Positions 24,901-59,790 of a stretch of DNA of 64,000 nucleotides are shown piece after piece; position 1 is the stretch's first letter; each line of letters starts with the position of its first letter. Position numbers and translations under genes: made by a program. The DNA comes from Clytia hemisphaerica. Its lineage: Eukaryota. The stretch is from positions 483,995 through 547,994 of the forward strand of contig NW_027104280.1 in NCBI RefSeq assembly GCF_902728285.1. The letters are read 5' to 3'. Under the pieces are notes generated by a model, which had not been told where the DNA came from, did not search any database, and saw only the letters and a program-made list of their open reading frames with translations.

Positions 24901-24901
24901 T

Positions 24902-25090: not shown

Positions 25091-25174
25091 ACTTCTCTTG
25101 AAAACTAAAAAAAATTATATTCGCTCATCTCTTAGAACAACCACGACCCTGGATACCGCCTTACATTGTATATA

Positions 25175-25394: not shown

Positions 25395-25576
25395 TACGAT
25401 GTGCCCGGTGGGTGTTTTTTAATAATAATGTAATATGTTTTAGGTTAGAATGCTAAAACACCATACATTTTCCCGCTGTACATGTACGGACCGCTTTCGG
25501 ACTGCTCGTAAAAACGTGTGTCCCTGGTCAACTGCAGTCTTTACTTCATAGGTCGGGCGGGGACGAATCTTGAAAG

Positions 25577-25953
25577 AGGGCGGACAGTCAGGCACATCCT
25601 GGCAAATGAACGGGGTATTTTTCACTTGCGAACATTGGCAAATGAACGGGGTCGAAAACGAAAGTGACGTAATAGCGCCGAATACCTAGTTTAATTGAAC
25701 AGGGTTGGAATTATTTTGCTTCATTTCAAAGAACTTTTTTTCCATTGGTCAATTTTGTCTTCGAAGATTGAAGAAACTTTTAATGAAAAAATAAAGTTCC
25801 CAGTTTTCTTCCTTTTTTCCCTTTTTCAGTTTGAAGTTCATTTTTATTCATTTTCACGCTTTTAGCCTGAGACGTCCTATCTCATTTACACTGGGTGGTG
25901 GGTGACGAAATACCCCATGCAAATGCTCACCCTGTTCATTTGCCAGGATGTGC
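25577..25953. mobile_element. Element bounded by ~29-bp inverted repeats gtcaggcacatcctggcaaatgaacgggg
   Basis: Left copy at 25577-25605; reverse-complement copy at 25925-25953. Confidence 0.5.
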
Positions 25954-27893: not shown

Positions 27894-29066
27894 ATGTACG
27901 ATAATAGTACAGACTACATTGTAGCATCTTTAGCAGAGGGAATGGTACCTAATGAGGACCAGAGTGGATTCTCTTTCCAAATAGAACTAATCAAACGGCT
28001 GGAGAGGTTTCTTATCCTTGGTACAGAGGGAAATACTTACTATGCAAGTGAAAAAGACAGAACATATGAAAACATAAGTTGTATAAATGAGCTCTTAGAA
28101 AAAGGAGAAGTGGATAAGGTTTTGCACATTCTCAAAACATTTAGTGTTCAAGGGAGATGTCCAAAAGAGGAACCAATCCTGGTTGCTTTGGTGCAATGTT
28201 GTTATTTCCAAAATGCTGAGATCCGTAAGAAGGCTTATGATTTAGTTACTCCAATTTGTAATATACCAACAAAGCTGTTTAGATTCATTGAGCTTTGTCA
28301 GCAAAACGTCAATCAGGAAAGAACAGCAAAGAAGCATTTAACAGAACTACCAAAAGAGCTCAAGAAGAATCCTCTAAAGCAGAATCCATTAAAAAGGAAA
28401 AAAGAACCGATGGAATCAGAAGAATGCATAGAAGAAGCACCTGATTCAAAAAAAGCCAAAAAGCAGAAGAAGAAAAATAGCCCTTTCAAATCTTATCACA
28501 CTGACAAAGCTCGCTCTTCAGGCTGGGGGCGCATGCGTAGGAGAGGGATATCTAGCTTTTATTGTGATAAGAATAAAAGTGCTGAACGGTTGCTGTATTT
28601 GTTGACAAAGTTTAAAAACCGAAACAATTGGAATCATCGGCAAGTTCTTGGTTACGCTCATCCAAAGATATCCAAAGATGATGAGGAACAAGATGGCAAG
28701 AATTTGGTCCTGGCGTACTGCACCAGAGGCGTGGAAGGTTTTCAGAAGAAGCTAAACGAAATCAAGAGAAGATCAGCAAATTGTTTGCCACAGAATGTGT
28801 CTCGTATTCAAAACTTTGTTCAAATTCTTGAACAGGTCAGTAAGCTATCACCAGAAAATGAAGGTGATGAAGAGAAGCTATTGGAATTTTTACGTGGTTA
28901 TGGCATTCGTGAAAGTGCTGACGAGTTTGCAGTTGAAATTGTACTCCCTGGAGTCCCCCTCACTCCACCTCCACCATCATCTGGTAAAGAAAAAGCAAAA
29001 AATTCTAAGCAACCATTCCAAGTTGTGCGAGAACATATACCAACTGCGTTCCTCAGTTCTGCAAAG
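27894..29066 (+). CDS. RO60: Ro60-like A exon 1
   Basis: Donor aag|gtaaat. The 5' boundary is uncertain. Confidence 0.65.
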
Positions 29067-30655
29067 GTAAATGTTAGTTAACAATGATAACACTGATAGA
29101 CTTTTATTTTATCAATTTTTAGATATGCCACAGTTATCATGATAATTAAGAGATTATTTTAGATTGTAACTTTAAAATTAAGATTAATTTAAAATTTTAG
29201 ATTCCACCTAAAATGATAAATATTGAGTGAGTCATTCATTCATCTTTGTTGTTCTCTTAGGTTTGGGAAGCATTGTTGCAAGACATGCCAATGACAGCTA
29301 TGCTGCGAAACTTGGGGAAAATGACTTCCCTTGGTTTGTTTCAGAAGCCCGAAAACTTGAAAATTGTATTGGACGCTTTAGGTGATACAAATCGTCTTCA
29401 GAAAGCAAGAATTCATCCCATTAAGGTTGGAGTCAATTTATCTTACCTTTCCACTTTTAGCAGTTGATTACAATCAAGTCAGCTGATTCAGTTATTATTT
29501 TTGTGACCATTTTTATGATCCTCATTGTAAGTTCTTCTTACATTACATCTCTTCGTAATGCTAAACAATATTTCTTCACTTTCAGCTTTTGATTGGGATG
29601 AAAGCGTATGAAAATGGTGCTTCATTAAGTATGATGAGTTCTGTCACAAAGACAAACACAACAACATGGGAAGCAAACCAAGAAATTTTGAAAATCTTGG
29701 ATAAAGCCTTCTATAAAAGCTTTAAGGTAATAAGATTGTTTTTTCTTTCAATGCTGATGTTATGGTGTCAGAATGCTGTGATGTAGATTGAAATTTTCAA
29801 ACATGAAAAGCAAAAACTTCCTGAAATTTTAAAAATCTATATCTGCTATTATAAGTGATATCTGCTAATTTTCTCCTTTCAGCAACCAGAAACGCAAGAT
29901 GCATTTAGAACAGGGAAACGGTTTATGTTGGCATTGGATGTCAGTGGTTCAATGACATGTGGTGGCTGTAATGGTTGTGAACAGCTCACCCCCTCCATAG
30001 CTGCCACCGCACTCTCTATGGTCACATGGAATATAGAAGAGCACGTGGAAATGGTGGCCTTTGGTGGTCGTTTGGAGCGATTGGAAGATCATGGTTTACG
30101 CAAAGATTTGACCATCAATGATGCTTGGAGGAAGATGAGTCGGGTACTGATTATCATATTTCAGAGAATATTCTTTAATTCGTTCCAATCGTCTATTTTA
30201 CAAGACCTTTCCAACTCTAAAGTAGAGAAAGAATTCAAGTCTTCTGGGCTATTGAAAAAAAAAACTTTTTGGACCCATCTTTTCTACATTCAACAAATGC
30301 TCCAGAAATTTTTTATGTTGTGTTGTTTAATTGATTCGATAATGTTTTGTTTCAGATCAACTTTGGTTCAACAGATTGTGCGTTACCAATGAATTATGCG
30401 ATAGACCGTAATCTTGATATTGACGTCTTCATTGTTTACACCGATTCCGACACTAATTCATATAATCATCCTCACAAAGCATTGCAAAGATATCGCGAAA
30501 AGATGGGTAAACCTAACGCTAAACTCATCGTGATCGCCTTGACATCCAATGGGTTTTCTATCGCCGATCCTAACGACCGCCACATGCTGGATGTTGTTGG
30601 CTTTGATCCAGCTGTCCCTGAGATGATCTGCAATTTTGTTAACGACAGTTATTGA
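27894..30655 (+). CDS. RO60: Ro60/TROVE2-like RNA-binding protein, paralog A (TROVE + vWA with intact MIDAS), 5 exons
   Basis: join(27894..29066,29261..29425,29586..29726,29883..30143,30356..30655). Collinear with human Ro60 (recalled from memory): [109 protein letters not shown]. The start codon is uncertain: it is the first in-frame ATG before the TROVE core, and the ORF is open further upstream through a G/A/S-rich low-complexity stretch. Confidence 0.8.
29261..29425 (+). CDS. RO60: Ro60-like A exon 2 ([21 protein letters not shown]...ARIHPIK)
   Basis: Acceptor tcttag|gtt; donor aag|gttgga. 165 nt, phase 0. Confidence 0.8.
29586..29726 (+). CDS. RO60: Ro60-like A exon 3
   Basis: Acceptor tttcag|c; donor aag|gtaata. 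141 nt. Confidence 0.8.
29883..30143 (+). CDS. RO60: Ro60-like A exon 4 (vWA MIDAS, DVSGSM)
   Basis: Acceptor tttcag|caa; donor cgg|gtactg. 261 nt. Confidence 0.8.
30356..30655 (+). CDS. RO60: Ro60-like A exon 5 (terminal)
   Basis: Acceptor ttcag|atc; stop tga at 30653-30655. Confidence 0.8.
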
Positions 30656-31483: not shown

Positions 31484-32539
31484 ATGGATCCATTCAAAAA
31501 ACTTGCCCTTTTGAAGGCCAAAATGACCAGCATGAGTAGGGCCCAGATTGCGGAAGCCATCCGAAACATGACCCTGGGAGTAAACACAACAGAACAAGAG
31601 CCAGACCTTACTACACCACAAAATCAACCTTTGCAAGGACAGTCACAGAACTCTGCAGGTGGTTTTTCCTACACTGTAGATAATATAACCAGACTGAAAA
31701 GATATCTGATATTAGGTTCAGATAAAGCAAAATACAAGAGTGGCTCTCAAGCAGAAAATGTTCAAAACATTCCAGTTGTTGAAGAACTTTTAAAGGAGGG
31801 CAAGGGAAAGGAAGTGATTGATTTGATCGTTCAGTTTGCTCGTGAAGCACGTATCTCAAAAGAGGAGAACATTTTGATGGTATTACGTGATTGTATGATG
31901 TATCAGGGAGATACCATGTATGAAGATAGGACCATACAACGAGCTGCTTATGACAGTATTGTCAAAATCTGTAATATCCCAACCAAGCTTTTCCGATTGA
32001 TGGAGCTTTGTAAACCATGTTATCAAAATAATTGGAAGCCTTCAACCAAGCCAGTCAGTAAGACGCAACTACGGAAGAAAGCAAAACAAGCAGCTCAACA
32101 GCAGAATCCAGGGCCTTCCACCTCCACTGAAACTGCAACCGCTCAACCACCGTCAGCAAAAGTGCCAGTTGAAACATGTGAAATTGTTGAAGAGGGTGAA
32201 CCTCCCAAGAAAAAGAAAAAGAAGACGAAGAAGAAGAAAAAACCAAAGGAACCCAAACCTCAAACAACGCAAAGGTTCAAAAAATCTTCCAGTTGGGGAC
32301 GTGCTAGACGGCGTGGTGTCGGAAATTTTTACACCGATCCAAGTAAAGATGCCAATCGATTGTTATTGTTGATGACAAAGTACAAACAACGTCATAATTG
32401 GAACCATGTTCAAACGTTGGGTTATTGTCATCCAAAAATGATGGGAGACGAGGAACAAGCTAAGAATATCGTCCTCCAGTATTGCACACGTGGCAAAGAA
32501 AAGTTGGACAAATATCTGGTCAAGAAAAATATCGATGGG
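31484..32539 (+). CDS. RO60: Ro60-like B exon 1
   Basis: ATG at 31484; donor ggg|gtaacg. Confidence 0.8.
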
Positions 32540-35500
32540 GTAACGATATTTCATTCTTTTCTATTTCATTTTTTAAAAATTTGTAAGAAGAGATATGGTA
32601 CTTTCATCACTGTCTGTGTATTGTAGGGAAAAGTTTTCCCAAATCTCTAATCCTTTACTTACACAACATTTAAACAAAAGAAAGAACAACCCCATTTTCA
32701 GAGCTGTGCGAGCACAAATTTTGAGAAATTCTTTTGTTTGTTATACTTTGTCCACCAAGAGGCTTCTTATTAAAAAAGATCCTTAATATTTCCACTACCG
32801 TCCCTGAACACTTCCGGGAGGTAATCGAAAAAGGTCGAATCCAAATACAGCACCATGTATATGTATGTATCATGCCTGATCCAAGTTTAGTAAATATCAT
32901 GAAATTTTCACATTGATAACAATGGTTTCTTAATTTTTGGATTTTCTTTCCAGAATCAACCAATGGATCCAATCACATCTCAAATATTACAACACATAAA
33001 AGTTCTTGAGGAAGTCAAGAACCTGAAACCGGATGTCCCGGCCGATGTGAAGAGATTGCTGGAATTGTTGCACCAATACGGTATTCGGAAGGTGCCACAA
33101 GAATTTGATGTGGACGCTGCAGGTCAGATGGTACAAGTGGAAAACACTCAACGTAAAAAATGTTCTTTTCAACTGACCAGGGAGCATTTACCAAATGGCT
33201 TCCAAAAATTGAAGGAGGTAATAGTTGATCAATTAAACAAAATTTAAAACCGCTAATATACGGTTTTTTCAATCCCGATCAGCCCGATCAGATTTTGAAA
33301 GCTTGACTAAAAGCTCTTTTAATCGTAATTAAATACAATTTCACTCTACTCAACAATCCCAATCTTTCTCCATTAAAATTTTTAGGTTTGGGTGGCTCTA
33401 CTTCAAGACATGCCCATGACAGCCTTGATCAGGAATCTCGGCAAAATGACCAGCCTTGGGCTCTTTGATGATCCGGCAAACAGAGAAATCGTCAAGAAGG
33501 TTTTAGGGGATGGCTCTATTTTGAACAAAGCAAGAATTCACCCAGTCAAGGTTTGCTATTTATTTAGAGTGATGGCCAAGGTGCATAAACCAGGGGCTCC
33601 CTGCTTCTTTCGATGTTCCGATATTGAATAGGCATTTTTCGAGCCCTTTTAGTTTTGGCGCACGTTTTCTACATGCCAATAAAAGCCGGGTGTAAATTTA
33701 TGGGAATACGGTATTTATCTTTTTGCTTATTGGTGATATTTAACGTTAAATTTCGACAATTTTACACTTCACTACTCCTTACATGAATGATCAAATACCA
33801 ACTATATATCCATGCAGGGAAAATTAGAAAAGTAATGCGCCGTGATTGAACCTGTAAGTAATGCACCGTAATTGAACCTATAAATAATGCACCGTGATTG
33901 AACCTATAAGTGATGCACCGTGATTGAACTTGTAAGTAATGCACCGTGATTGAACCTGTAAGTGATGCACCGTGATTGAACCTGTAAGTAATGCACCGTG
34001 ATTGAACCTTGTTACAGATTCTGTTAGCATCAAAGATGTATGAGCAAGGCAATGGTGATCAAGGGCAAAGCCATCAACAACAACAAAAAAATCAAACAAT
34101 TAGTCAATCAACCAAAGAACCACTTACTTGGAGACCAAACGCTGAAATCTCCAAAGCTCTCAATGATGCTTTCTACTTAAGTTTCAGGGTAAGCTCTATT
34201 CTAGAAATGCAGGCATGGTTAACATAGTCAAGCATTCTGCTATAACGAATTCCTATGGCTCGTGCGCTAGAGTTTCATTTATCATTTGAACTTTTATATA
34301 CTTGCTAAAATTGATTAGTTTTCTTGAGAATCTCTTTCATTGTTTCCATAGCAACCCGGCAAGAATTCTTCATTCCGTACAGACAAAAAGTTCATGCTAA
34401 ATCTGGATGTTAGTGACTCTATGGATTGGGGTAACTGTGTAGGGTGTGATTTCCTGACGCCCGCTGCCGCCTCTTTCGCCCTGGCCATGATTACGATGAA
34501 TGTTGAGCCACATTGTAGTGTGTTTTCTTTCGGGGGAACGCTTCAAAATATCGATCATTTATTGAAGAGGGATATGACCATCCTTGAAGCCATTCAAGTG
34601 GGACGCTCTGTAAGTCGAGTCGAAGAAATCTTGTTTTAAATATTCTCATTACTTTATTTCTTCGAACTTGGGCCTCACATAAAACAGAACATCATTCTTA
34701 GAACGTCAAAAATGTCTAATTCCGAATTCTATTTGAATCTTTCTATAGTTCGAACTAATTCCCAGTCCCCATCAGCATCAATTTTCAATATTCCCTTTCG
34801 ACTTTGAATGAGCGAGACTAAAATATATACATTATCGGCCAAAACTTAGCCGGCCTCAATTATTAGTCGGCCCTAATTTTAGTCACATCATCAAAATTTA
34901 GTCACTTAGGGTCGACTAAATTTTGGCCGATAAGGTATAAAAAATCGACTTCCATGTCAATAGCTTTATTCCGCAATTTTCTGTGCTTTCTCTTTTTATC
35001 AGTTATGTCATCATGCCTCATTAAACTTAACTTAGGACATCCATATTATCTTTCAGCTCAATTTCGGTGCAACAGACTGTGCTCTACCAATGGTGCACGC
35101 CACGCAGAACAGGCTGGATGTGGACGTTTTCATCGTTTACACTGACTCCGAAACTTGGATTGGAAAAGTTCATCCTTCTGAAGCTTTAAAGAATTATCGG
35201 CAAAAGATGAACAAACCGGATGCCAAACTCATCGTCATGGCAATGAAGGTTTGTCTGTTCTCCACACGGCCCTGTAATGTAGTCTGTGCCTCTAAAGAAT
35301 CCTGCATTGTAACACACATGCTTAATTTGTCGTTCTTTAAACCATATATAGTTAATTCCCGTGATAAACAAAGAGGAATGAATCTGTAGGGGTGGTACCA
35401 TTGAGTTTCAAGCCGAAGGCTAGAGGTCAATCTCCTTGGTAGGATTTGAAGCCAACAAATCCTACCAAAGTTGCGCGGCCTTGAGCGACCCGCCTGGTTT

Positions 35501-38500
35501 TTACACAAATAACAGATTGAAACTAAAATTTACCGCTTAATTTCGAAAAATATATCACTCGAAAACAAAGGAATTGCTAGATTCAATCCGTCATCAAAAA
35601 TACGGCGCATATTTTAAGGCTTCAATTTTTCTTGCCTGAGAAAGGTTAGAGATTGACCTCTAGCCCTTCGGGCTTGAAACTCAATGGGTGGTACATGTCA
35701 CTTTCGGTCGGGGCTGTGGACGGCCAAATATGTCGATTTTTATGAAATTTGTCGTTTTTTTTGTCTATTTTTAGTAATGCAGGATTCTTTAGATAAACCC
35801 CTCATGATATTATGATATCTCGTTATAAAAAGTGATGGCATCAATTCATTTCAGTCGGTTTCAATCCTGTAAAACCTTAAAAACACACGGTGAATAGGTC
35901 ATCAACTTCTAGTTATTAGAATTCTGTAGATAACCCTTTTCTTTTTCATTGTATTCGAACTCTTTGTATGACTTCCCAAGGGAATGTTGTGGTGCTTATA
36001 AAGACTTTTTTACAGGTTTTGTACGGGATTGTTGTGGTGCATATAAAGACTTTTTTACAGGTTTTGTACGGGAATGATGTGATGCATATTAAAACTTTTT
36101 TACAGGTTTTGTACGGGATTGTTGTGGTGCATATAAAGACTTTTTGACAGGTTTTGTACGGGAATTTTGTGATGCATATAAAGACTTTTTTACAGGTTTT
36201 GTACGGGATTGTTGTGGTGAATATAAAGACTTTTTTACAGGTTTTGTACGGGATTGTTGTGATGCATATAAAGACTTTTTTACAGGTTTTGTACGGGATT
36301 GTTGTGGTGCATATAAAAACTTTTTACAGGTTTTGTACGGGAATGATGTGATGCATATTAAAACTTTTTTGCCTGTTTTTACAGGTTTTGTACGGGGTTG
36401 TTGTGGTGAATATAAAGACTTTTTTACAGGTTTTGTACGGGATTGTTGTGGTGCATAGAAAGACTTTTTTTACAGGTTTTGTACGGGATTGTTGTGGTGA
36501 ATATAAAGACTTTTTTACAGGTTTTGTACGCGGATTGTTGTGGTGAATATAAAGACTTTTTTACAGGTTTTGTACGGGATTGTTGTGATGTATATAAAGA
36601 CCTTTATTACAGGTTTTGTACGGGATTGTTGTGATGTATATAAAGAATTTTTTACAGATTTTGTACGGGATTGTTGTGGTGAATATAAAGACCTTTTTAC
36701 AGGTTTAGTACGGTAATGTTGTAGTGAATATAAAGACCTTTTTTACAGGTTTTATACGGGATTGTTGTGGTGAATATAAAGAGTTTTTTACAGGTTTTGT
36801 ACGGGATTGTTGTGGTGCATATAAAAACTTTTTACAGGTTTTGTACGGGAATGATGTGATGCATATTAAAACTTTTTTACCTGTTTTTACAGGTTTTGTA
36901 CGGGGTTGTTGTGGTGAATATAAAGACTTTTTTACAGGTTTTGTACGGGATTGTTGTGGTGCATAGAAAGACTTTTTTTACAGGTTTTGTACGGGATTTT
37001 TGTGGTGAATATAAAGACTTTTTTTACAGGTTTTGTACGCGGATTGTTGTGGTGAATATAAAGACTTTTTTACAGGTTTTGTACGGGATTGTTGTGATGT
37101 ATATAAAGACCTTTATTACAGGTTTTGTACGGGATTGTTGTGATGTATATAAAGAATTTTTTACAGATTTTGTACGGGATTGTTGTGGTGAATATAAAGA
37201 CCTTTTTACAGGTTTAGTACGGTAATGTTGTAGTGAATATAAAGACCTTTTTTACAGGTTTTATACGGGATTGTTGTGGTGCATATATATTTTATTTTAT
37301 TGGACCTACCCCAGTGGAGGTCCTATAAATTAACCGTTGTATGTTCGTTCGTTCGTTACCAGCTTTTCTCGAGATTGGCTCATTAGTTTTTTCTGATTTT
37401 TTGCACAAAGATGCATAACTATAAACCCTCGAATGTGACGGAGCCCGATTTTCGAAAAAAAAATTTTTAGGCAAATCTGGGCCAAAAAACGGCTAAAAAA
37501 CGGGTTTTTTGGACTTTGTGAAAAATTGGATCATTAATTTTTTCTGATTTTTTGTATCAAAGTAGGGTACCATCATAGGTAAAAGATGGCTCAGGCAGAT
37601 TTTTGTAAAAAAAATTTTTTGGCTCAAAAACGCATGTTTATCTATAAGAATCACTATTAATAAGCATACATCAATGTTCTTAGTCAAATTACTCAATTAT
37701 TTTTATGAGATAGATGTATTTTTTGCTATTGAGGGCTTACTTTTGAAGAATATGTGTGTTTAGACATGAAATTTAGGCTGCTTGGCGTGCTTTTATAGAA
37801 AAACTGGCCTAATTCGATATTTTTTTATAAGCACATTATCAATTACTTAGGTATTAGCTTTTCTCGAGTTTGGCGCTTTCATTCTTTATGATTTTTTGCA
37901 CAAAGATGCATAACTATAAACCCTCGAATGTGACGGAGCCCGATTTTCGAAAAAAAAATTTTTTAGGCAAATTTGGGCCAAAAAACGACTAAAAAACAGG
38001 TTTTTTGGACTTTGTGAAAAATTGGATCATTAATTTTTTCTGATTTTTTGTAGGATAGTAGGGTATCATCATAGGTGAAAGATGGCTCAAGCAGATTTTT
38101 GCAAAAAAAATTTATTGGCTTAAAAAACGCATGTTTATCTATAAGAATCAATATTAATAAGCATACATCAATGTTCTTAGTCAAATTACTAAATTTTATT
38201 ATGAGATCGATGTGTTTTTTTGCTCACGAAGTCTTGAATATGAAAGAATATTTATAGAGCATGAAATTTTGGTTTCTAAACGGTTTTTTATAAGAAACAA
38301 ACGATTAATTTTAATAGATCGTCACTATTAGTGTTCTGAATGATTGTTTAATGGTCACGCTCACGTAGATATCAATTATATATGTGTTAAATGCATAACC
38401 AGGTAGGTCCATAAAGGTATCACTTGTTTTATTTTATTTTTATTTTCCAATTTATTTAACGTTGGGCTGACATCGTTATAATTAAAAATACTAATTAATA

Positions 38501-39377
38501 CCAACTATATAGAATACAATATAGTATAGAATAATAAATTTAAAATTTTTTTTTATGTGTATATTTTACAATGACAAATATTTGTAAGATTTAGTTTTTC
38601 TTTCAGACTTTTTTTTTACAGTTTTTGTACGGGATTGTTGTGGTGAATATAAATACCTTTTTTACAGGTTTTGTACGGGAATGTTGTGGTGCATATAAAA
38701 ACTTTTTTTACAGGCTTTGTACGGGATTGTTGTGGTGAATATAAAAACCTTTTTTACAGGTTTTGTACGGGATGGTTGTGGTGAATATAAAGACCTTTTT
38801 TACAGGTTTTTGTACGGGATTGTTGTGGTGAATATAAATACCTTTTTTACAGGTTTTGCACGGGAATGTTGTGGTGCATATAAAAACCTTTTTTACAGGT
38901 TTTTGTACGGGATTGTTGTGGTGAATATAAATACCTTTTTTGCAGGTTTTGTACGGGAATGTTGTGGTGCATATAAAAACCTTTTTTACAGGTTTTGTAC
39001 GGGATTGTTGTGGTGAATAGAAAACCTTTTTACGGTTTTGTTGGTTGTGGTAAAACCTTACAGGTTTTTTCTTTGGTTGGTTGTGGTGAATATAAAGACC
39101 TTTTTTACAGGTTTTGTACGGGATGGTTGTGGTGAATATAAAGACCTTTTTTACAGGTTTTGTACGGGATTGTTGTGATGCATATAAAGACCTTTTTTAC
39201 AGGTTTTGTACGGGATTGTTGTGATGATTATAAAGACCTTTTTTCTTCTCTCCATTTTTCAAGGTTAATGATTTCACGATCGCCAATCCACTCGATCGCG
39301 GTATGTTTGACATTTGCGGATTCGATTCTAACGTACCTGACCTGATCTGCGAGATCGCCAGAGGAAATATGTCTTAA
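31484..39377 (+). CDS. RO60: Ro60/TROVE2-like paralog B, 7 exons; the last intron (~4 kb) is filled by 45-bp satellite arrays and a MITE
   Basis: join(31484..32539,32954..33217,33386..33550,34018..34188,34352..34609,35057..35248,39264..39377). The ATG is preceded by an in-frame TGA. Motifs: [97 protein letters not shown]. The terminal exon VNDFTIANPLDRGMFDICGFD aligns residue for residue with A's contiguous [22 protein letters not shown]. Confidence 0.8.
32954..33217 (+). CDS. RO60: Ro60-like B exon 2
   Basis: Acceptor tttccag|aat; donor gag|gtaata. Confidence 0.75.
33386..33550 (+). CDS. RO60: Ro60-like B exon 3
   Basis: Acceptor ttttag|gtt; donor aag|gtttgc. 165 nt, as in A and C. Confidence 0.8.
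33831..34009. repeat. 26-bp minisatellite, about 7 units, directly upstream of the exon 4 acceptor of paralog B; each unit carries GTAAGT
   Basis: Unit cctgtaagtaatgcaccgtgattgaa, with variants. Confidence 0.85.
34018..34188 (+). CDS. RO60: Ro60-like B exon 4 (contains a Q-rich tract)
   Basis: Acceptor tgttacag|att; donor agg|gtaagc. Confidence 0.75.
34352..34609 (+). CDS. RO60: Ro60-like B exon 5 (MIDAS, DVSDSM)
   Basis: Acceptor ccatag|caa; donor tct|gtaagt. Confidence 0.8.
34831..34935. mobile_element. Hairpin MITE (ttatcggcc...ggccgataa) inserted in intron 5 of paralog B; the site is empty in paralog C
   Basis: B has aaatatatac[attatcggcc...ggccgataagg]tataaaaaatcgact. C has aaatatatttaaaaatcgact at 44527. 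Confidence 0.65.
35057..35248 (+). CDS. RO60: Ro60-like B exon 6
   Basis: Acceptor tttcag|ctc; donor aag|gtttgt. Confidence 0.75.
35985..37290. repeat. 45-bp satellite array, about 29 units, with ~510-bp higher-order periodicity, in the last intron of paralog B
   Basis: Unit ttttttacaggttttgtacgggattgttgtggtgcatataaagac. One frame is stop-free, which produces periodic pseudo-ORFs reading YKDFFTGFVRDCCGA. Confidence 0.9.
37302..38410. mobile_element. GGACCTACC-family element, two nested or tandem copies, in the last intron of paralog B
   Basis: ggacctaccccagtggaggtcc at 37302. The internal module is repeated at 37860. Ends aggtaggtcc at 38402-38410. Confidence 0.7.
38595..39245. repeat. Second array of the same 45/46-bp satellite, abutting the terminal-exon acceptor of paralog B
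   Basis: Variant unit ccttttttacaggttttgtacgggaatgttgtggtgcatataaaaa. It ends about 20 nt before the acceptor at 39263. Confidence 0.9.
39264..39377 (+). CDS. RO60: Ro60-like B terminal exon
   Basis: Acceptor tttttcaag|gtt; stop taa at 39375-39377. Direct homolog of C's terminal exon. Confidence 0.7.
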   Translation, partial: VNDFTIANPLDRGMFDICGFDSNVPDLICEIARGNMS

Positions 39378-39612: not shown

Positions 39613-40060
39613 GAAGATCTGTAGATTAGCACCCGTGTTTTTCAGTAGCCTGTTTTTTTTTTTTGGGGGGGGGGGTTAGAAATTGTAATTACGAAACCCC
39701 AAAAATAAGGTAAATATAGGCTAAAATCAGGCTATTTAAAGCAGAATAAGGGACCCTCTCTTAGAAAGTTGAAAAAAAATAATTAAAAATTAATAAACGG
39801 GGGGGGTCCTAATAAGGTCCGGTGGGGGGGGGGCTGGAAAATTTTCGAAAAATTAACAAGCGGGGCCCGTTTGTTTGGAACCTAAGAGTACTTGGAGTTG
39901 TGCGGGATTCGATTGAGAAGCATAAGAATCTATAAAGAGAGAGTCATAAGGCATAGGGAACAATGATATTGATATTGATGTATTTTATTGTATAGAAGCA
40001 GTTTACATAGAATGCTACACGTTCAGGAGCTGGAAATCAGTGTTTCATTCCTTCCGAAAT

Positions 40061-40913: not shown

Positions 40914-41981
40914 ATGGACCCATTCAAACAACTTGCCCTTTTGCAGGCTAAAATGGCCGGCATGAGTAGGGCCCAGATTGAGGAAGCCATCCGAAACATG
41001 ACCCTGGGAATAAACCCAACAGAACAAGAGCCAGACCTTACTACACCACAAAATCAACCTTTGCAAGGACAGTCACAAAACGCTGCAGGTGGTTTTTCCT
41101 ATACTGTTGATAATATAACCAGACTGAAAAGATATCTGATATTAGGTTCAGATAAAGCAAAATACAAGGGTGGCTCTCAAGCAGAAAATATTCAAAATAT
41201 TCCAGTTGTTGAAGAACTTTTAAAGGAGGGTAAAGGAAAGGAAGTGATTGATTTGATCGTTCAGTTTGCTCGTGAAGCACGTATCTCAAAAGAGGAGAAC
41301 ATTTTGATGGTATTACGTGATTGTATGATGTATCAGGGAGATGCCATGTATGAAGATAGGACCATACAACGAGCTGCTTATGACAGTATTGTCAAAATCT
41401 GTAATATCCCAACCAAACTTTTCCGATTGATGGAGCTTTGTGAACCATGTTATCAAAATAATTGGAAGCCTTCAACCAAGCCAGTCAGTAAGACGCAACT
41501 ACGGAAGAAAGCAAAGCAAGAGGCAATACAAGCAGCTCAACAGCAGAACCCAGGGCCTTCCACCTCCACTGAAATCCCGGCCGCTCAACCAACGTCAGCA
41601 AAAGTGCCAGTTGAAACATGTGAAATTGTTGAAGAGGGTGAACCTCCAAAGAAAAAGAAAAAGAAGACGAAGAAGAAGAAAAAACCAAAGGAACCCAAAC
41701 CTCAAACAACGCAAAAGTTCAAAAAATCTTCAAGTTGGGGACGTGCTAGACGGCGTGGTGTCGGAAATTTTTACACCGATACTAGTAAAGATGCCAATCG
41801 ATTGTTATTGTTGATGACAAAGTACAAACAACGTCATAATTGGAACCATGTTCAAACTTTGGGTTATTGTCATCCAAAAATGACGGGAGACGAGGAACAA
41901 GCTAAAAACATCGTCCTCCAGTATTGCACACGTGGCAAAGAAAAGTTGGACAAATATCTGGTCAAGAAAAAAATCGATGGG
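40914..41981 (+). CDS. RO60: Ro60-like C exon 1
   Basis: ATG at 40914; donor ggg|gtaacc. Confidence 0.8.
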
Positions 41982-44900
41982 GTAACCATATCTCATTCCT
42001 TTCTATTTTATTTTTTTTTAATTTGTAAGAAGAGATATGATACTTTCGTCACTGTCTTTGTAGTGAGAATTTATCTCGAATCTGTTCAAATGACACCACT
42101 TACTTTATTAATCTCCTACCATTTGCTTACATGGCATTTTTAATCTCGCGTCGTGCGAGCACAAATTTTGATAATTTCTTTTGTTTGTTATACTTTGTCG
42201 GCATAGAAGCTTCTTATTAAAAAAGAAGATCCTTATTATTTCCACACACTCCCTGGAGCTGGTAATCGAAAAAGGTTGAATCCAAGTTTAGTAAATATCA
42301 TGAAATTTTTCACATTGATAACAAGGTTTTCTTAATTTTTGGACTTTCTTTCCAGAATCAACCAATGGATCCAATCACATCTCAAATATTACAACACATA
42401 AAAGTTCTTGAGGAAGTCAAGAACCTGAAACCGGATGTCCCGGCCGATGTGGAGAGATTGTTGCAATTGTTGCATCAATACGGTATTCGGGAGGTGCCAC
42501 AAGAATTTGATGTGGACGCTGCAGGTCAGATGGTACAAGTGGAAAACACTCAACGTAAAAAATGTTCTTTTCAACTGACCAGGGAGCATTTACCGAATGG
42601 CTTCCAAAAATTGAAGGAGGTAATAGTTGATCAATTAAACGAAACTTAAAACCGCTAATATACGGTTTTTTCAATCCCGATCAGCCCGATCAGATTTTCT
42701 ATTGATCGAAAGTTAGTCCTTGAAAGCTTGACTAAAAGCTCTTTTAATCGTAATTAAATACTTAAATGGTTCCAATTTCACTCTACTCATGAATACCAAT
42801 TTTTCTCCCTTAAAATTTTTAGGTTTGGGTGGCTCTACTTCAAGACATGCCCATGACAGCCTTGATCAGGAATCTCGGCAAAATGACTAGCCTTGGGCTC
42901 TTTGATGATCCAGCAAACAGAGAAATCGTCAAGAAGGTTTTAGGGGATGGCTCTATTTTGAACAAAGCAAGAATTCACCCAGTCAAGGTTTGCTATTTAT
43001 TTAGAGTGGCGGCCAAGGCGCATAAACCAGGGGCTCCCTGCTTCTGTCGATGTTCCGATATTGAATAGGCTTTTTTCGAGCCCTTTTAGTTTTGGCGCAC
43101 GTTTTGTTCTATACGACAATAAAAGCCGCGTGTAAATTTATGGGAATAAGGTATATCTATTTGCTTACTGGTGATATTTAACGTTGAATTTCCACGGTCT
43201 TAAGGCCGGTCTCCACTTGCGCGTGCTGCGATCGCATTTTTTGGCTTCAGTGCTTTTTGCTTGGATAAAAGATTACGTCATAAAAATGTAGCGCACGCTC
43301 GAAAAAAAAGTTGAACACATTTCAACTTTTTTCAACCGTTAACGTCAGATCGCGCCAATGGAGTTGCTTCATTTTTCTTTTGACCAATAGCGTGGAGGCT
43401 TCGCCCGAAAAAGTGCGATCGAAGCGCGCGCAAGTGGAGACCGGCCTTTACACTGCACCTTACATGAATGATCAAATACCAACTATATATCCATGAGGGG
43501 AAAAGTAGAAAACTGTTTCTTACTTGATGAATTTGTAAGTGATGCACCGTGATTGAGCCTGTAAGTAATGCACTCTGATTGAACCTGTAAGTAATGCACC
43601 CAGATTGAACCTTGTTTCAGATTCTGTTAGCATCAAAGATGTATGAGCAAGGCCATGGTGATCAAGGCCAAAGCCATCAACCACAACAAGAATATCCAAC
43701 AATGAGTCTTTCTCAACAACTACGACAACAACGACAACGACAACAACAGCCACAACAACCACAACAACGAGTACCAACCAAAGAACCACTTACTTGGATA
43801 CCAAACGCTGAAATCTCCAAAGCTCTCAATGATGCTTTCTACTTAAGTTTCAGGGTAAGCTCTACTTTAGAGATGCAAGCATGGTTAACATAGTCAATCA
43901 TTCTGGTATAGCGAATTCCTATGGCTCATTTTGAACTTTTATATACTTGCTAAAATTGATTAGTCTTCTAGAGAATCTCTTTTAATATTTCCATAGCAAC
44001 CCGGCAAGAATTCTTCCTTCCGTACGGACAAAAAGTTCATGTTAAATCTGGATGTTAGTGGCTCTATGGATTGGCGTAACTGTGTAGGGTGTGATTTCCT
44101 GACGCCCGCTGCCGCCTCTTTCGCCCTGGCCATGATTACGATGAAAGTTGAGCCACATTGTAGCGTGTTCGCTTTCGGGCGCACGCTTCAAAATATCGAT
44201 CATTTATTGAAGAGGGATATGACCATCCGTGAAGCCATTCAATTGGGACGCTCTGTAAGTCGACTTCACTATCAAGAAATCTCGTTTTGAATTATTCTCA
44301 TTTCTTTATTTCTTCGAACTTGTGTCTTACCTAAATCAGAATATACATCATTCTCAAAAAGTCAAAAATGTCTACGGTTGACTCTCGCTAATTCCGAATT
44401 ATATTTGAATCTTTCTAGAGTTTAAACTAATTCCCAGTCTCCATCAAAGTAGAAGCCTCTTTATTTCGAATATTTCTGTAATTCGAGCAAATCAGACTTC
44501 CCTTTCGACTTTGAATGAGCGAGACTAAAATATATTTAAAAATCGACTTCAATGTCAATAGTTTAATTCCAAAATTTTCTGTGCTTCTTTTATCAGTTAT
44601 GTCATCATGCCTCATTAAACTTAACTTAGGACATCCGTATATCTTTCAGATCAACTTTGGTGCAACAGACTGTGCTCTACCAATGGTACACGCCACGCAG
44701 AACAGGCTGGATGTGGACGTTTTCATTGTTTACACTGACTCCGAAACTTGGGTTGGAAAAGTTCATCCTTCCGAAGCTTTGAAGAATTATCGTCTAAAGA
44801 TGAACAAACCGGATGCCAAACTCATTGTCATGGCAATGCAGGTTTGTCTGTTCTCCATTTCACGGCCTGTAATGCTGGAATATATGCAGTCTGTTCCTCT

Positions 44901-45500
44901 AAAGAATCCTGCATTGTAACACGGATGCTTAATTTGTCGTTCTTTAAAAACCATATATAGTTAATTCCCGTGATAAACAAAGAAGAATGAATCTGTAGGG
45001 TTGGTACAAGTCACTTTCGGTCGGAGCTGTGGACGGCGAAATATGTCGTTTTTTATGAAATTTGTCGTTCTTTTTGTCTATTTTTAGTAATGCAGGATTC
45101 TTTAGATAAACCCCCTCGTCATGATATTATGATATCTCGTTATAAAAAGTGTTGGCATCAATTCATTTCATTCGATTTCAATCCTGTAAAACCTTTAAAA
45201 CACACGGTGAATAGGTCATCAACTTCTAGTTATTAGAATTCTGTAGATAAATCATTCTTTTTCATTGTATTTGAACTTTTCGCACACTTGGGATTGTTGT
45301 GGTGCATATAAAGACCTCTTTACAGGTTTTGTACGGGATTGTTGTGATGAATATAAAGACCTTTTTTCTTCTCTCCATTTTTCAAGGTTAATGATTTCAC
45401 GATCGCCGATCCACTCGATCGCGGTATGTTTGACGTTTGTGGATTCGATTCTAACGTACCTGACATGATCTGCGAGATCGCCAGAGGAAATATGTCTTGA
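40914..45500 (+). CDS. RO60: Ro60/TROVE2-like paralog C (recent duplicate of B), 7 exons
   Basis: join(40914..41981,42356..42619,42823..42987,43621..43854,43997..44254,44650..44841,45387..45500). Exons are about 93-97% identical to B. MIDAS DVSGSM. Exon 4 carries an expanded (CAA/CGA)n polyQ tract. Confidence 0.8.
42356..42619 (+). CDS. RO60: Ro60-like C exon 2
   Basis: Acceptor tttccag|aat; donor gag|gtaata. Confidence 0.75.
42823..42987 (+). CDS. RO60: Ro60-like C exon 3
   Basis: Acceptor ttttag|gtt; donor aag|gtttgc. Confidence 0.8.
43203..43447. mobile_element. MITE with 21-bp TIR aggccggtctccacttgcgcg and TTA target-site duplication, in intron 3 of paralog C; absent from paralog B
   Basis: tcTTA|aggccggtctccacttgcgcg...cgcgcaagtggagaccggcct|TTAcac. 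B has the unoccupied site. Confidence 0.75.
43535..43612. repeat. Same 26-bp minisatellite, 3 units, upstream of the exon 4 acceptor of paralog C
   Basis: tgtaagtgatgcaccgtgattgagcctgtaagtaatgcactctgattgaacctgtaagtaatgcacccagattgaacc. Confidence 0.8.
43621..43854 (+). CDS. RO60: Ro60-like C exon 4 (polyQ expanded)
   Basis: Acceptor ttgtttcag|att; donor agg|gtaagc. 234 nt versus 171 nt in B. Confidence 0.75.
43997..44254 (+). CDS. RO60: Ro60-like C exon 5 (MIDAS)
   Basis: Acceptor ccatag|caa; donor tct|gtaagt. Confidence 0.8.
44650..44841 (+). CDS. RO60: Ro60-like C exon 6
   Basis: Acceptor tttcag|atc; donor cag|gtttgt. Confidence 0.75.
45291..45372. repeat. Two-unit remnant of the 45-bp satellite just upstream of the paralog C terminal-exon acceptor
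   Basis: ggattgttgtggtgcatataaagacctctttacaggttttgtacgggattgttgtgatgaatataaagacc. Confidence 0.8.
45387..45500 (+). CDS. RO60: Ro60-like C terminal exon
   Basis: Acceptor tttttcaag|gtt; stop tga at 45498-45500. Confidence 0.7.
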   Translation, partial: VNDFTIADPLDRGMFDVCGFDSNVPDMICEIARGNMS

Positions 45501-46960: not shown

Positions 46961-49900
46961 GTGAGTTAATAGCCAGTTTATGTATGTGTGTTTTTTTCTG
47001 CGACAGGGACGGTTAGGTTTTGATTCTACATCATGGACTTTGACGTCCTCAAAAGTGGAAATACATAAGGGAATAAGGGAACGCATAAATGAACAAACGA
47101 ACGCATAAATGAATGATCGAACGAAGGAAGGAACAGATAAAAGAATGAATGAGTGAGTAATCAAATGAACAAACAAGCGAAATAGCGAATGAAGCAATCA
47201 GTGAGTGAATGAATGATGACAGACTGAGAGAACGAGAGAACGAGCGAATGATTGAATGAAAAAAAACGGCCTGATTAAGAAATGAAAATGGATTATTCAC
47301 CAAATGAGCGAATGAATTATCCTGTAATTGAGATGACAAAAGGAGTGTCGGAAAGATCGGACGAAAGAAGCTACGAATTGTTTTCTTTTTTCAGGTAATG
47401 AAGAACAAGACAGCGCTTTAATGGAAATCCACTTATTAGCACAAGCCTCTCAATATCTTCCTCGCGATGTAATCATAGCCAAAATTCGAGAAATCCAAGA
47501 TAAAATGAAACCAAAACCTGTACTAAGGCCTCGATTACCCAGACCATCTCCGTTTGTGACAGAAATTGATCGAGACCATCCGATATTTATTCGACAGTTC
47601 TATTCTTTTGTTTTGACTGGTAATACAACCGGACATTTTCGTGTAGTTAGTACACCAGTACATTTTGGTGAGTTGGATTTCATGGACGATATTTTGAAAG
47701 ATTTAAACGATGTAGCAATATACGAGTTGGTAAAATTTCTTTTGAAGTTGAAGGAAAAATATTTTTGTCGAACGAAATTCTTGTTGATGGTTTACTTGAA
47801 GTTTGTTTTTGCGTCCAATCAAAAGACTTCGAAACAAGCGATCGACAATTTCGATAAAATTTGTGATACTGGTTCTTTATTGTTTCAATTTATGTCATTA
47901 AGTGAGAAATTGTACAATCATATTCATGGAGCGCCAGATGTACCACAACTTTCCAAAGATGAGCTACTGAGAAAAAGACTGGCACGTTTTGAAAAAATGA
48001 ACGTTCCATCCGCCAAAGCTTTACCTCCACATGATACGAACAGTAAATTTTCAGCTAGTCATTCTGCCGTCACAACTTTACCTAGCAACTCAGCCGCTAC
48101 ATCTTCTCAAAAGCCTAGCAGCTCAGCAGCTTCAGAAATCGTTCCCATGGACTTTGATAAGCCAATCAAAAAGAAGAAGAAGAAGAAGAAGAAGAAAAGA
48201 ATAAAGGTGAAGCATCCGAAACCATCTAAAAAGCCGGTCAAAGTTCACAAAAAATGTAAATTGAAACTCAGACATAAAAGCTTGCGTAAATGTTTCACAA
48301 AATTTCTTGATGCCACTCCACCTGGTTTGTTATTGTTCTTCATGTCACGTGACGTCGAGTGGGAGCGAAAAGAAGAATACGACTTTGTAGACTTCAAATA
48401 TCTTTTCAAACATTTACACCCAAAAATAACTAAGGATGCAGATTTGAAGAATTTGATAATTATTAATCATTTAAGTGGAAATGAAAAATTTCGGGAACAA
48501 GCAGATAACTACGTGGAGCAAAACCCGGTCTTGCAGAATACCGAAAATATAGTTTTAAACGGGATTATAACTACCGAAAATTTGAAAACGGATTTCGCGT
48601 ATAAAGGCTTATTTGGAGGGGAACAAGTTCACAATAGGAACAGTTTAAACATGATGCTTTATAAATGGGGAGAATTAGGGAAAAGAATTTGGACAGATGT
48701 TTCGGACACTTCAACAAAATGTGTGGAATTTTCGGACGAATATTCGTTAGACCAAGAGAAATATTTTCGATTGACTTATGAACATATAATCGAACACCAT
48801 CGGTATCAACCAAAGGTAGGTTTGAGTAATGACCATTATCCTTCACTCTCTTTTCGATCGATGTACTGACTTTTATATATCCTTGGACCAAGCTATATCC
48901 GCCATCTTTGATCGAAGTTTTTTTGAAAGTTGTGCCCACCAAGAAGCCATTGTAGTGTTTGAAATTTTGTCCAATGACAAACCGCGCTACATCATTAGTG
49001 TGTAAAAGCGAAACTAGATCTAGCGCTCTCTCCGTTGGTACCAATTTCAAAAAAACTCCGATCGTGATATTTTGCTTGGCCGGCATTGAGTAACTTGGTC
49101 CAGGGATATATAATGGATGGATGCAATAACTGCCATCGTGATCTTCTATCAAAAAGGTGTCACGAAAATTTGTTAGATTAAAGTCCGAGTTTCTTAAGAG
49201 AAGTTGCACGATGTTATCGTCCGTTAAATGGAGTAAACGCGGGAAAATATATATTTGCGCGGAGTATGCAGCCGTCAGGACAGTTTACGGGAAAATAGCG
49301 GTGGTACTGTAAACACCTCCACCCCTTCTCACTCCGTCCTGGGCTAGACTCCGTTTTTTAATTTATCCCGCCTCCTAAATTATTCCCTTTTTAAGGGACC
49401 TGCTCTACGAATGGGATATTGTAAAGAGAAATGAACTTAGAATACTTTTTTTATTTGTAGGTATGGGTAGAAATTGTTGAGGACCTCCCTTACATGTTGG
49501 TTCTGGAGAAATTGGAATTCATTTTCGAACGAAATCAATTGATTGGAAACAAACAGCTTGTTTTCAAACTTCAAATGATTATCGAAAGTATCAACCGAGT
49601 GATTGCTGCCAAAGTTCACCCTACACAAGTATGATGCCACATTTCTGTCCATTAGAATTGTTCTCTTTTATCGTGGTCCCCTCTCTCTACAATTCGAAAG
49701 CTTGACGCGAACGCAAATTTGTTACAGTAATGTGTCGAAATTATTGAATTTCAAGTTATTGATATATTTTGGAGTTGGTTAGAGCTTTTACTGTAAACCC
49801 AGCTGGCACACAACGTTGTTTCAACGTTTATCTAACGTTCACAACGCCCATATAACGTTAGATGAACGTTGAAACAACGTTGTGATTATTTTCTCATTTT

Positions 49901-59710: not shown

Positions 59711-59790
59711 AGTCTGAAGCAGCTCATTTTGTATTTCTTCAACAGCTTCCACTCATAAATCTTCATATTGCCTTAATCGCCTCATTTTTT

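What the first reader, a model, noticed from the sequence alone, without database searches (positions are those of the whole stretch)
35985..39263. Intronic 45-bp satellite whose unit mimics a 3' splice site, abutting the real terminal-exon acceptor
The unit (ttttttacag|gttttgtacggg...) contains a polypyrimidine tract plus ACAG|G. The real acceptor is ccatttttcaag|gttaatg at 39263 (and at 45386 in C). The array ends about 20 nt from the real acceptor in both B and C, so the satellite plausibly arose by slippage of the intron-exon junction itself. In B it expanded to ~45 copies, placing dozens of decoy acceptors in the last intron. One reading frame of the array is stop-free, which explains the periodic ORFs in the six-frame track. 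This could reduce splicing efficiency of B or create alternative C-termini.
Basis: partly seen in the sequence, partly recalled or inferred. Interest (0 to 1): 0.6.

Follow-up and report, generated by a model that had tools for sequence, protein, structure and literature searches.

The report
Acceptor-like minisatellite in a young intron
A 45-bp repeat whose unit looks like a splice acceptor occurs about 43 times in the recently gained last intron of one of three tandem Ro60 genes of the jellyfish Clytia hemisphaerica; it is most likely neutral repeat DNA, because every transcript found uses the normal acceptor.

Summary
The repeat is real. It is two blocks, not one: 35980-37287 (28.5 copies) and 38612-39244 (14.1 copies). 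A 1.3-kb transposon-like insertion (37288-38611) separates them.

The window is Clytia hemisphaerica (a hydrozoan), not a nematode. It holds three tandem Ro60/TROVE genes, A, B and C. The array lies in B's last intron (35249-39263). C has 1.7 units at the same position.

Thirty-eight units carry RCAG|G after a T-run. On a crude PWM they score as well as real Clytia acceptors. Four of six reading frames are stop-free, not one.

The idea that the unit arose by slippage of the junction is not supported. The array stops 19 nt short of the acceptor. The unit resembles that acceptor no more than it resembles other acceptors.

The intron itself is a lineage-specific gain. It is absent from paralogue A, from two other hydrozoan orthologues and from a mollusc.

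I found no evidence that decoys are used. The five distinct metatranscriptome contigs, the RefSeq model and the EukProt model all use the canonical junction. C skips its own decoy, which lies 61 nt upstream. No array sequence was found in the transcript or protein collections searched.

B remains an intact ORF (omega 0.28 against C).

Verdict: an ordinary intronic minisatellite with latent pseudo-acceptors, sitting in an interesting young intron.

The parts
35057..35248 (+). Exon 6 of Ro60-like paralogue B. The donor is AAG|gtttgt at 35248/35249.
   Evidence: Homology mapping of C's exons onto B. All GT/AG sites are kept and the spliced ORF of 739 aa is intact.
35249..39263 (+). Last intron of B, 4,015 bp (C's counterpart, 44842-45386, is 545 bp). 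The intron is a lineage-specific gain.
   Evidence: The intron position is uninterrupted in paralogue A (30356-30655), in hydrozoan orthologue contigs L001 and L004 and in mollusc L012.
35291..35793 (.). MITE-like element with 18-nt perfect terminal inverted repeats (TCTAAAGAATCCTGCATT). A B-only foldback element is nested inside it at 35398-35687.
   Evidence: A compact third copy lies at 8760-8917 on the minus strand.
35980..37287 (+). Minisatellite block 1: 28.5 copies of a 45-bp unit (GGGATTGTTGTGGTGCATATAAAGACTTTTTTACAG|GTTTTGTAC). It includes an 11-unit higher-order duplication.
   Evidence: TRF, pattern search, self-BLAST at a shift of about 505 bp giving 95.6% identity against 86-88% at other shifts.
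37288..38611 (.). Insertion that splits one repeat unit. It consists of a TE-like element (about 37296-38431, ends GGACCTACC...GGTAGGTCC, with an internal duplication) plus about 175 bp of AT-rich filler.
   Evidence: 81-85% identity to 11316-11938 and weaker copies at 13.1-14.6 kb and 58.9-60.3 kb. The unit resumes after the insert.
38612..39244 (+). Minisatellite block 2: 14.1 copies of a 46-bp variant (GACC + T6-7 + ACAG|G). The last decoy acceptor AG is at 39201-39202, 61 nt upstream of the real exon start.
39245..39263 (+). Non-repeat pyrimidine tract and authentic acceptor: cttctctccatttttcaAG|.
   Evidence: The sequence is identical in C at 45368-45386.
39264..39377 (+). Terminal coding exon of B (37 aa plus stop). 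It encodes the end of the Ro60 vWA domain.
   Evidence: Pfam PF25045 vWA_Ro60, E = 3.6e-8, positions 135-163 of 165; tblastn.
45290..45367 (+). 1.7-unit version of the same repeat in paralogue C, with a single decoy (ctctttacAG|G, AG at 45324-45325).
   Evidence: B's last partial unit is 97.6% identical to C's.
30356..30655 (+). Last exon of paralogue A. It is continuous across the position where B and C carry the intron.
   Evidence: Exact mapping of UniProt A0A7M5V631 (P0006) onto the window.

Best explanation
This is a neutral intronic minisatellite. The window is Clytia hemisphaerica genomic DNA with three tandem Ro60/TROVE genes, A, B and C.

Before the B/C duplication, their common ancestor gained a new phase-0 intron inside what had been the last exon, at ...MAM(K/Q)|VNDF.... 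That young intron filled up with MITEs. About 19 nt upstream of its acceptor it also held one or two copies of a 45-bp GT-rich sequence.

In B the 45-mer now stands at about 43 copies. Unequal exchange or replication slippage is the inferred mechanism, and an 11-unit block duplication is still visible. A 1.1-kb transposon later landed inside the array.

Each unit happens to contain T6-A-CAG|G, which is a consensus-quality pseudo-acceptor. The spliceosome nevertheless uses the authentic acceptor downstream. That site has a much longer pyrimidine tract and is the last AG before the conserved exon. The pseudo-sites are latent, like the silent 5' pseudo-sites of the human F7 IVS7 VNTR.

Shown: the anatomy, the gene models, the intron gain, the motif quality, and canonical splicing in all available transcripts. 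Inferred: the mode of expansion, neutrality, and silence of the decoys in B itself.
For: - Organism and gene models.
- Two-block array, higher-order repeat and TE insertion.
- The intron is absent in A, L001, L004 and L012.
- MITEs in the intron.
- B is an intact 739-aa ORF with dN 0.026, dS 0.095, omega 0.28 against C, so it has been under purifying selection.
- Canonical exon 6|7 junction in L002, L005/L006, L007, L008 and L009, in XP_066929344.1 and in TCONS_00071016, even though C carries a decoy 61 nt upstream.
- No array sequence in JGI contigs. No array-derived peptide among 5.8 billion proteins.
- No Rfam family, tRNA or significant RNA fold in the array.
Against: - Decoys score as well as or better than real acceptors on the small PWM (mean 4.95 bits against a leave-one-out median of 1.86 for real sites). 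Some use cannot be ruled out.
- No transcript or annotated protein that is clearly the expanded B gene was found. B's splicing has therefore never been observed directly, and the absence could itself mean impaired expression.
- The chance that a random 45-mer carries Y6NCAGG on a given strand is only about 0.3%. The mimicry is not fully explained by chance.
Confidence: 0.68

Rival explanations
1. Functional or deleterious decoy array. The roughly 38 pseudo-acceptors compete with the real site. This would lower correctly spliced B mRNA or produce B isoforms whose last 37 aa (the end of the vWA domain) are replaced by 1-110 array-encoded residues. Such isoforms would escape NMD because the stop codon would lie in the last exon.
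For: - The motif is consensus-quality and scores like real sites.
- The phase-0 donor reads directly into a stop-free frame, VLYGIVVV(N/H)IKTFLQ.
- No B-type protein or transcript is present in the collections.
Against: - C's identical-context decoy is skipped in all transcripts and models.
- No array-bearing contig or peptide was found anywhere.
- B's ORF is under purifying selection.
- By analogy, the F7 IVS7 pseudo-sites are functional but silent (PMC1557585).
- The decoys' pyrimidine content at -20..-4 is 0.57, against 0.94 for the real site.
Confidence: 0.17
2. Imported acceptor module. The young intron was created by insertion of foreign DNA (introner-like or transposon-derived) that brought its own 3' splice signals. 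On this reading the 45-bp unit is part of that element, not a sequence born in place.
For: - The intron is a recent gain.
- It is largely made of mobile-element sequence.
- Both junctions read AAG|GTT in B, a 6-bp direct repeat of the kind left by target-site duplication or staggered-break repair.
Against: - No terminal inverted repeats at the intron ends.
- The MITE sits internally, 45 nt from the donor.
- The AAGGTT repeat is largely forced by splice-site consensus (my rough estimate, not computed, is p of about 0.1 for the two positions that are not forced).
- No other copy of the unit or of the non-MITE intron parts exists in the 64-kb window.
- The rest of the Clytia genome could not be searched.
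Confidence: 0.1
3. The array arose by slippage or duplication of the intron-exon junction itself.
For: - The array abuts the acceptor in both paralogues.
- CCTTTTTTACAGGTT aligns with CCATTTTTCAAGGTT at 12 of 15 positions.
Against: - That alignment score is reached by 10.6% of random 40-mers.
- Unrelated acceptors match the decoy as well or better.
- No unit spans the junction.
- There is no similarity between the rest of the unit and exon 7.
Confidence: 0.04
4. The array is a coding or structured-RNA element, or an assembly artefact.
For: Long ORFs, up to 162 codons, in four frames.
Against: - The open frames follow from a 45-bp (15-codon) unit and are broken by indels.
- No protein homologue exists.
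- No Rfam or tRNA hit.
- The fold z-score is -1.26.
- Unit-to-unit divergence of about 10% and a TE insertion with diverged relatives argue for real, aged sequence.
Confidence: 0.01

Closest known systems
Human F7 intron 7 37-bp VNTR with 5' pseudo-splice sites (Borensztajn et al. 2006, PMC1557585)
   Same: An intronic minisatellite next to an authentic splice site. Every unit carries a consensus-quality copy of a splice signal. [quoted passage not shown]
   Different: - F7 concerns donors; this case concerns acceptors.
- In F7 the first unit spans the exon-intron boundary, so the pseudo-sites are identical to the real site. Here the array stops 19 nt short, and the real site (CAAG|GTTAAT) differs from the decoy (ACAG|GTTTTG).
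- In F7 silence was shown experimentally. Here it is only inferred.
Introns born from tandem arrays (Zhuo et al. 2007 PNAS 104:882, cited in PMC2812944 and PMC2586383; content recalled from memory, the paper is not held in the library)
   Same: Repeat units carrying AG|GT-type signals inside genes, and an association with evolutionarily young introns.
   Different: In those cases both splice sites lie in repeat units and the array itself is spliced in many ways. Here both real splice sites lie outside the array.
Variable internal tandem repeats between recent paralogues (De Grassi & Ciccarelli 2009, PMC2812944)
   Same: A minisatellite (units of about 30-45 bp) whose copy number differs strongly between recently duplicated paralogues and lies close to an exon-intron boundary. 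That paper reports that such repeats can activate cryptic splice sites.
   Different: Those cases have transcript support for altered exon or intron structure. No altered B transcript is known here.
CeRep25B intronic minisatellite near alternatively spliced regions in C. elegans (Glauser 2014, PMC4039745)
   Same: An intronic minisatellite whose motifs overlap splicing-regulatory elements.
   Different: That is a statistical, genome-wide association for a dispersed family. This is a single locus with no evidence of a family.
Introner / transposon-generated introns and DSB-repair intron gains with short flanking direct repeats (general literature, from memory)
   Same: A lineage-specific intron at an AG|GT proto-splice site, with an AAGGTT direct repeat at both junctions and TE-rich content.
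   Different: No multi-copy intron family has been shown, there are no terminal repeats at the intron ends, and the direct repeat is not statistically compelling.

Membership tests
Minisatellite / VNTR | Head-to-tail copies of a 10-100-bp unit | tested here: met
   Period 45-46, 28.5 + 14.1 copies, 85-87% matches. Spacing is 44-47 bp for 31 of 37 intervals.
Minisatellite / VNTR | Copy number varies between alleles or paralogues | tested here: met
   B has about 42.6 copies and C has 1.7 at the orthologous position. Variation between individuals could not be tested.
Splice-site-bearing boundary VNTR (F7 IVS7 type) | A unit spans the exon-intron boundary, so pseudo-sites copy the authentic site | tested here: not met
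   The array ends at 39244 and the acceptor AG is at 39262-39263. The authentic CAAG|GTTAAT differs from the decoy ACAG|GTTTTG, and the similarity is no greater than to other acceptors.
Splice-site-bearing boundary VNTR (F7 IVS7 type) | Pseudo-sites are of consensus quality | tested here: met
   36 of 41 decoys reach or exceed the median leave-one-out score of 11 real acceptors, placing them in the top 3% or so of all AGs. The PWM is crude (n = 11), and MaxEntScan was not available.
Splice-site-bearing boundary VNTR (F7 IVS7 type) | Pseudo-sites are silent in normal transcripts | tested here: inconclusive
   All five distinct contigs and two gene models use the canonical junction, but none is provably from the expanded B allele.
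Introns derived from tandem arrays (Zhuo et al. type) | Both the donor and the acceptor of the intron lie within repeat units | tested here: not met
   The donor at 35249 is 731 nt upstream of the array, and the acceptor is 19 nt downstream of it.
Recently gained intron | The intron position is empty in paralogues, orthologues and outgroups | tested here: met
   The sequence is continuous in A, L001, L004 and Sinanodonta L012.
Introner / TE-generated intron | Many near-identical copies forming introns in unrelated genes | not testable with these tools
   Only 64 kb of the Clytia genome is available. No second copy of the non-MITE intron sequence exists in the window.
Introner / TE-generated intron | Terminal repeats and a target-site duplication at the intron ends | tested here: inconclusive
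   An AAG|GTT direct repeat is present at both junctions in B, but there are no terminal inverted repeats, and the repeat is mostly forced by splice consensus.
Ro60/TROVE gene (host) | TROVE and Ro60 vWA domains | tested here: met
   PF05731 and PF25045 on P0001/P0065. B's last exon hits PF25045.
Protein-coding repeat | One maintained frame and homologues elsewhere | tested here: not met
   Four frames are open in the consensus and all are broken by indels. There are no hits in 5.8 billion proteins.

The most novel reading that the evidence does not exclude
The last intron of Clytia Ro60 B/C is a very young intron created by insertion of an element that brought its own acceptor module. The 45-bp unit (T6-ACAG|G) would be that module. 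If so, this is an introner-like intron gain in a cnidarian. B's 38-fold amplification of the module would then be a natural experiment in acceptor competition, and possibly the reason no B transcript or protein is on record.
Probability: 0.08. Interest if true: 0.6.

Novelty: new member of a known kind. Interest (0 to 1): 0.27.

Why it matters
As a repeat it matters little. Intronic minisatellites that differ between young paralogues are common, and silent pseudo-splice sites in VNTRs are a known phenomenon (F7 IVS7).

Two things give it modest value.

First, it is an acceptor-side counterpart of the F7 donor model. A built-in control exists, because C has one decoy and B has 38 in otherwise near-identical context. 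That pair could be used to test how metazoan spliceosomes choose among repeated 3' sites.

Second, the host intron is a demonstrably recent gain in a cnidarian gene. It is absent from the paralogue, from two hydrozoan orthologues and from a mollusc. Documented young introns in animals are uncommon, and this one is caught while still full of mobile elements.

Tried and rejected
- **Nematode origin.** The ttttcag-like acceptors and 36% GC suggested a nematode. Rejected: the proteins map exactly to Clytia hemisphaerica entries.
- **Coding repeat.** Rejected.
- **Known RNA family, tRNA/SINE or stable RNA structure in the array or insert.** Nothing was found. One miRNA-model hit scored 24 bits against a gathering score of 87, which I take as chance.
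- **Origin of the unit from the 3' junction, the 5' junction or exon sequence.** Alignment scores are not above background.
- **Target-site duplication as proof of transposon-made intron.** AAGGTT is present, but it is largely dictated by splice consensus. I left this as inconclusive.
- **Looking for B's annotated protein or its contigs.** P0065 is not on record there. No B-type member exists in the 90% cluster.
- **Scanning JGI contigs for the unit.** 0 hits.
- **Scanning JGI contigs for the exon 6 donor.** 4 contigs, all canonical.
- **Outgroups for the intron position.** Liolophura Ro60 (P0019) is a single uninterrupted ORF with no intron at all, and P0048 sits in what looks like a bacterial gene context, so neither adds much. 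Sinanodonta was usable.
- **MaxEntScan.** Not installed. I replaced it with a small species-specific PWM.
- **Deciding between expansion in B and contraction in C from unit similarities.** There is no signal. All classes are about 89-91% identical.
Full report
**1. What is in the sequence**

Tandem Repeats Finder reports a 45-bp repeat at 35980-37287 (28.5 copies, 87% matches). It reports a 46-bp variant of the same unit at 38612-39244 (14.1 copies).

The core 21-mer TTTTACAGGTTTTGTACGGGA, with up to 3 mismatches, occurs 39 times, all on the + strand. Thirty-eight are in these two blocks and one is at 45318. Only 0.01 are expected by chance.

The 1,324 bp at 37288-38611 are a different sequence:
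- A transposon-like element lies at about 37296-38431. Its ends are GGACCTACC...GGTAGGTCC and it has an internal duplication.
- It is 81-85% identical to 11316-11938, with weaker relatives at 13.1-14.6 kb and 58.9-60.3 kb.
- About 175 bp of AT-rich filler follows it.

The insertion split one unit (...GGTGCATATA | insert | AGACTTTTTTTTTACAG...), so the two blocks were once continuous.

Block 1 also shows a higher-order duplication. A self-match at a shift of about 505 bp (11 units) is 95.6% identical, against 86-88% at other shifts.

**2. Organism and genes**

The window is not nematode DNA.

- RefSeq XP_066929344.1 ('RNA-binding protein Ro60-like [Clytia hemisphaerica]', P0065) maps exactly onto seven exons at 40914-45500. 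This is gene C, and its last exon starts at 45387.
- UniProt A0A7M5V631 (P0006) maps exactly onto 24626-30655. This is gene A.
- Gene B (31484-39377) was modelled by homology to C. All seven exons and all GT/AG sites are intact, giving a 739-aa ORF.
- B's 37-aa last exon matches Pfam vWA_Ro60 (E = 3.6e-8).
- B's last intron is 35249-39263 (4,015 bp). C's is 44842-45386 (545 bp).

The array ends 19 nt upstream of the AG in both genes. C has 1.7 units (45290-45367) with a single decoy.

**3. The acceptor mimicry**

Thirty-eight units carry (A/G)CAG|G after a T5-7 run. This is the classical (Y)n-N-CAG|G.

Outside the array, Y6NCAGG occurs 0.06 times per kb per strand. A random 45-mer has about a 0.3% chance of carrying it on a given strand, or 2.5% for the looser Y6NYAG.

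I built a PWM from the 11 non-redundant real acceptors of A and C. It is crude, but MaxEntScan was unavailable.
- Decoys average 4.95 bits.
- The leave-one-out median for real sites is 1.86 bits, which is also the score of the true last acceptor.
- 36 of 41 decoys reach that median, whereas only 104 of 3,238 background AGs do.

The real site has a far richer pyrimidine tract at -20..-4 (0.94 against 0.57), but it has the less favoured AAG. So the mimicry claim holds at the motif level.

**4. The stop-free frame**

The consensus unit is open in four of six frames, two per strand. This is a simple consequence of a 45-bp (15-codon) unit with few stop triplets. Real ORFs run from 30 to 162 codons and are cut by 44-47-bp units.

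The frame entered from the phase-0 donor through a decoy is VLYGIVVV(N/H)IKTFLQ. Decoy use would replace the last 37 aa by 1-110 residues, median 37.

**5. Origin**

The proposal that the unit arose by slippage of the junction is not supported.
- No unit spans the junction.
- The best unit-to-junction alignment (12 of 15) is equalled by 10.6% of random 40-mers of the window.
- In register, the last acceptor matches the decoy at 12 of 18 positions. Unrelated acceptors do as well (B3 13, C3 12, C1 and A3 11).
- The similarity stops at the exon.

Unit identities are about 89-91% within blocks, between blocks and to C's unit. This is comparable with B-C neutral divergence (dS 0.095; introns 83-96% identical).
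- B's first and last units correspond to C's two units.
- B's last partial unit is 97.6% identical to C's.
- Expansion in B and collapse in C are therefore equally compatible with the data.
- Only the 11-unit duplication (4.4% diverged) has a divergence well below B-C dS, which suggests it post-dates the B/C split.

**6. The host intron is young**

- Paralogue A reads straight through the position (...[18 protein letters not shown]..., exon 30356-30655).
- B/C-type orthologues on genomic contigs of two other hydrozoans do the same. These are L001 (...LIVMAMKVNDFSIAD..., ATGAAAGTGAAC) and L004 (...MIVMAMQANDVSIAA...).
- A mollusc Ro60 gene does too (L012).

One gain in the Clytia B/C lineage is more parsimonious than three or four independent losses. 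The exon 1|2 intron of B/C is likewise absent from A, L001, L003 and L004.

In B both junctions read AAG|GTT. That is compatible with target-site duplication or staggered-break repair, but it is mostly forced by splice consensus, so I do not count it as evidence.

The intron is packed with mobile DNA:
- A MITE with 18-nt perfect terminal inverted repeats lies at 35291-35793 in B and about 44887-45114 in C. A compact third copy is at 8760-8917.
- A B-only foldback element is nested at 35398-35687.

**7. Is any decoy used?**

Direct RNA-seq cannot be queried here. The indirect evidence is as follows.

(a) A scan of JGI metagenome/metatranscriptome contigs for the exon 6 3' end returned four contigs, one of them the same contig as L005. 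With L002 this makes five distinct transcripts. All join ...ATGCAG to GT(T/G)AATGATTTC..., the canonical junction.

(b) The RefSeq and EukProt (TCONS_00071016) models do the same.

(c) C carries a decoy in the same context and at the same 61-nt distance as B's last decoy, and C skips it.

(d) A scan of the same JGI collection for the unit found nothing. A search with the four open-frame peptides against 5.8 billion proteins also found nothing.

(e) B has evolved under purifying selection (omega 0.28).

One caveat applies. None of the transcripts is demonstrably from the expanded B gene.
- All have the C-type CAG donor.
- L002 and L009 have B's short polyQ but are mosaics.
- No B-type protein is in the database.

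B's own splicing therefore remains unobserved.

**8. Other checks**

No Rfam family reached threshold. One sub-threshold miRNA-model hit lies in the TE. No tRNA was found. Three units fold no better than shuffles (z = -1.26).

**9. Interpretation**

The most likely reading (about 0.68) is a neutral minisatellite in a young, TE-rich intron. Its units contain latent pseudo-acceptors that the spliceosome ignores in favour of the authentic site.

The closest precedent is the human F7 IVS7 37-bp VNTR, whose 5' pseudo-sites are functional yet silent (PMC1557585). It differs from that precedent in three ways:
- It concerns acceptors rather than donors.
- No unit spans the boundary.
- Silence has not been shown experimentally.

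It also fits the pattern of variable internal tandem repeats between recent paralogues (PMC2812944).

The rivals are:
- real decoy competition or alternative C-termini in B (about 0.17);
- an imported acceptor module of an introner-like element (about 0.1);
- junction slippage (about 0.04);
- a coding element, structured RNA or assembly artefact (about 0.01).

**10. Verdict**

It missed the split array, the TE insertion, the four open frames and the hydrozoan origin.
- The decoy interpretation is plausible at the motif level but has no support from the transcripts available.
- The junction-slippage origin is not supported.
- The thing is a new member of a known kind, of low to moderate interest.
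- The most interesting by-product is the documented recent intron gain.

Noticed in passing
33830-34009 (B intron 3) and 43534-43612 (C intron 3): A second intronic minisatellite with a 26-bp unit: 6.9 copies in B and 3.0 in C. It runs right up to the exon 4 acceptor (34018 / 43621). Its unit contains GTAAGT, which is a donor-like motif. The last, diverged unit supplies the acceptor region (gattgaaccttgttacag|).
   Followed up: partly
B 32540-32953, C 41982-42355: The exon 1|2 intron of B/C is also absent from paralogue A and from hydrozoan contigs L001, L003 and L004. The B/C lineage therefore gained two introns.
   Followed up: partly
35291-35793, 44887-45114, 8760-8917 (-): A MITE family with 18-nt perfect terminal inverted repeats (TCTAAAGAATCCTGCATT). 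The copies in B and C carry nested inserts. B alone has a roughly 290-bp foldback element at 35398-35687 with two perfect 17-nt inverted arms.
   Followed up: partly
37296-38431; relatives at 11316-11938, 13098-14573, 58907-59121, 59785-60258: A dispersed transposon-like family, including a 153-bp or roughly 490-bp tandem arrangement at 13.2-14.6 kb. One copy is inserted inside the 45-bp array.
   Followed up: partly
43714-43770 (C exon 4) vs B exon 4 (34018-34188): A coding CAA/polyQ tract that is 63 bp longer in C than in B. Metatranscriptome contigs L002 and L009 carry the short form, and L005, L007 and L008 carry the long form.
   Followed up: partly
47589-48491; L001 17341-18180; L004 6417-7769: A fourth, very divergent TROVE-like ORF lies downstream of C (22% identity by tblastn, no Pfam hit). 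Syntenic counterparts lie downstream of the Ro60 orthologue in two other hydrozoan contigs.
   Followed up: partly
39650-39680: A run of T directly followed by a run of G (gtttttttttttttgggggggggg) sits where B-C homology ends (39656). It is possibly the duplication breakpoint.
   Followed up: no
L002, L005-L009 (JGI metatranscriptomes 3300032617, 3300032745 and the related Ga03146xx series): Environmental marine metatranscriptomes contain Clytia-like Ro60 transcripts 96-99% identical to C. They are mosaics of B-like and C-like variants, which suggests gene conversion or a different paralogue complement in wild populations.
   Followed up: partly
L010 (Liolophura sinensis, P0019): The chiton Ro60-like gene is a single uninterrupted 557-codon ORF, with no introns at all.
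   Followed up: no
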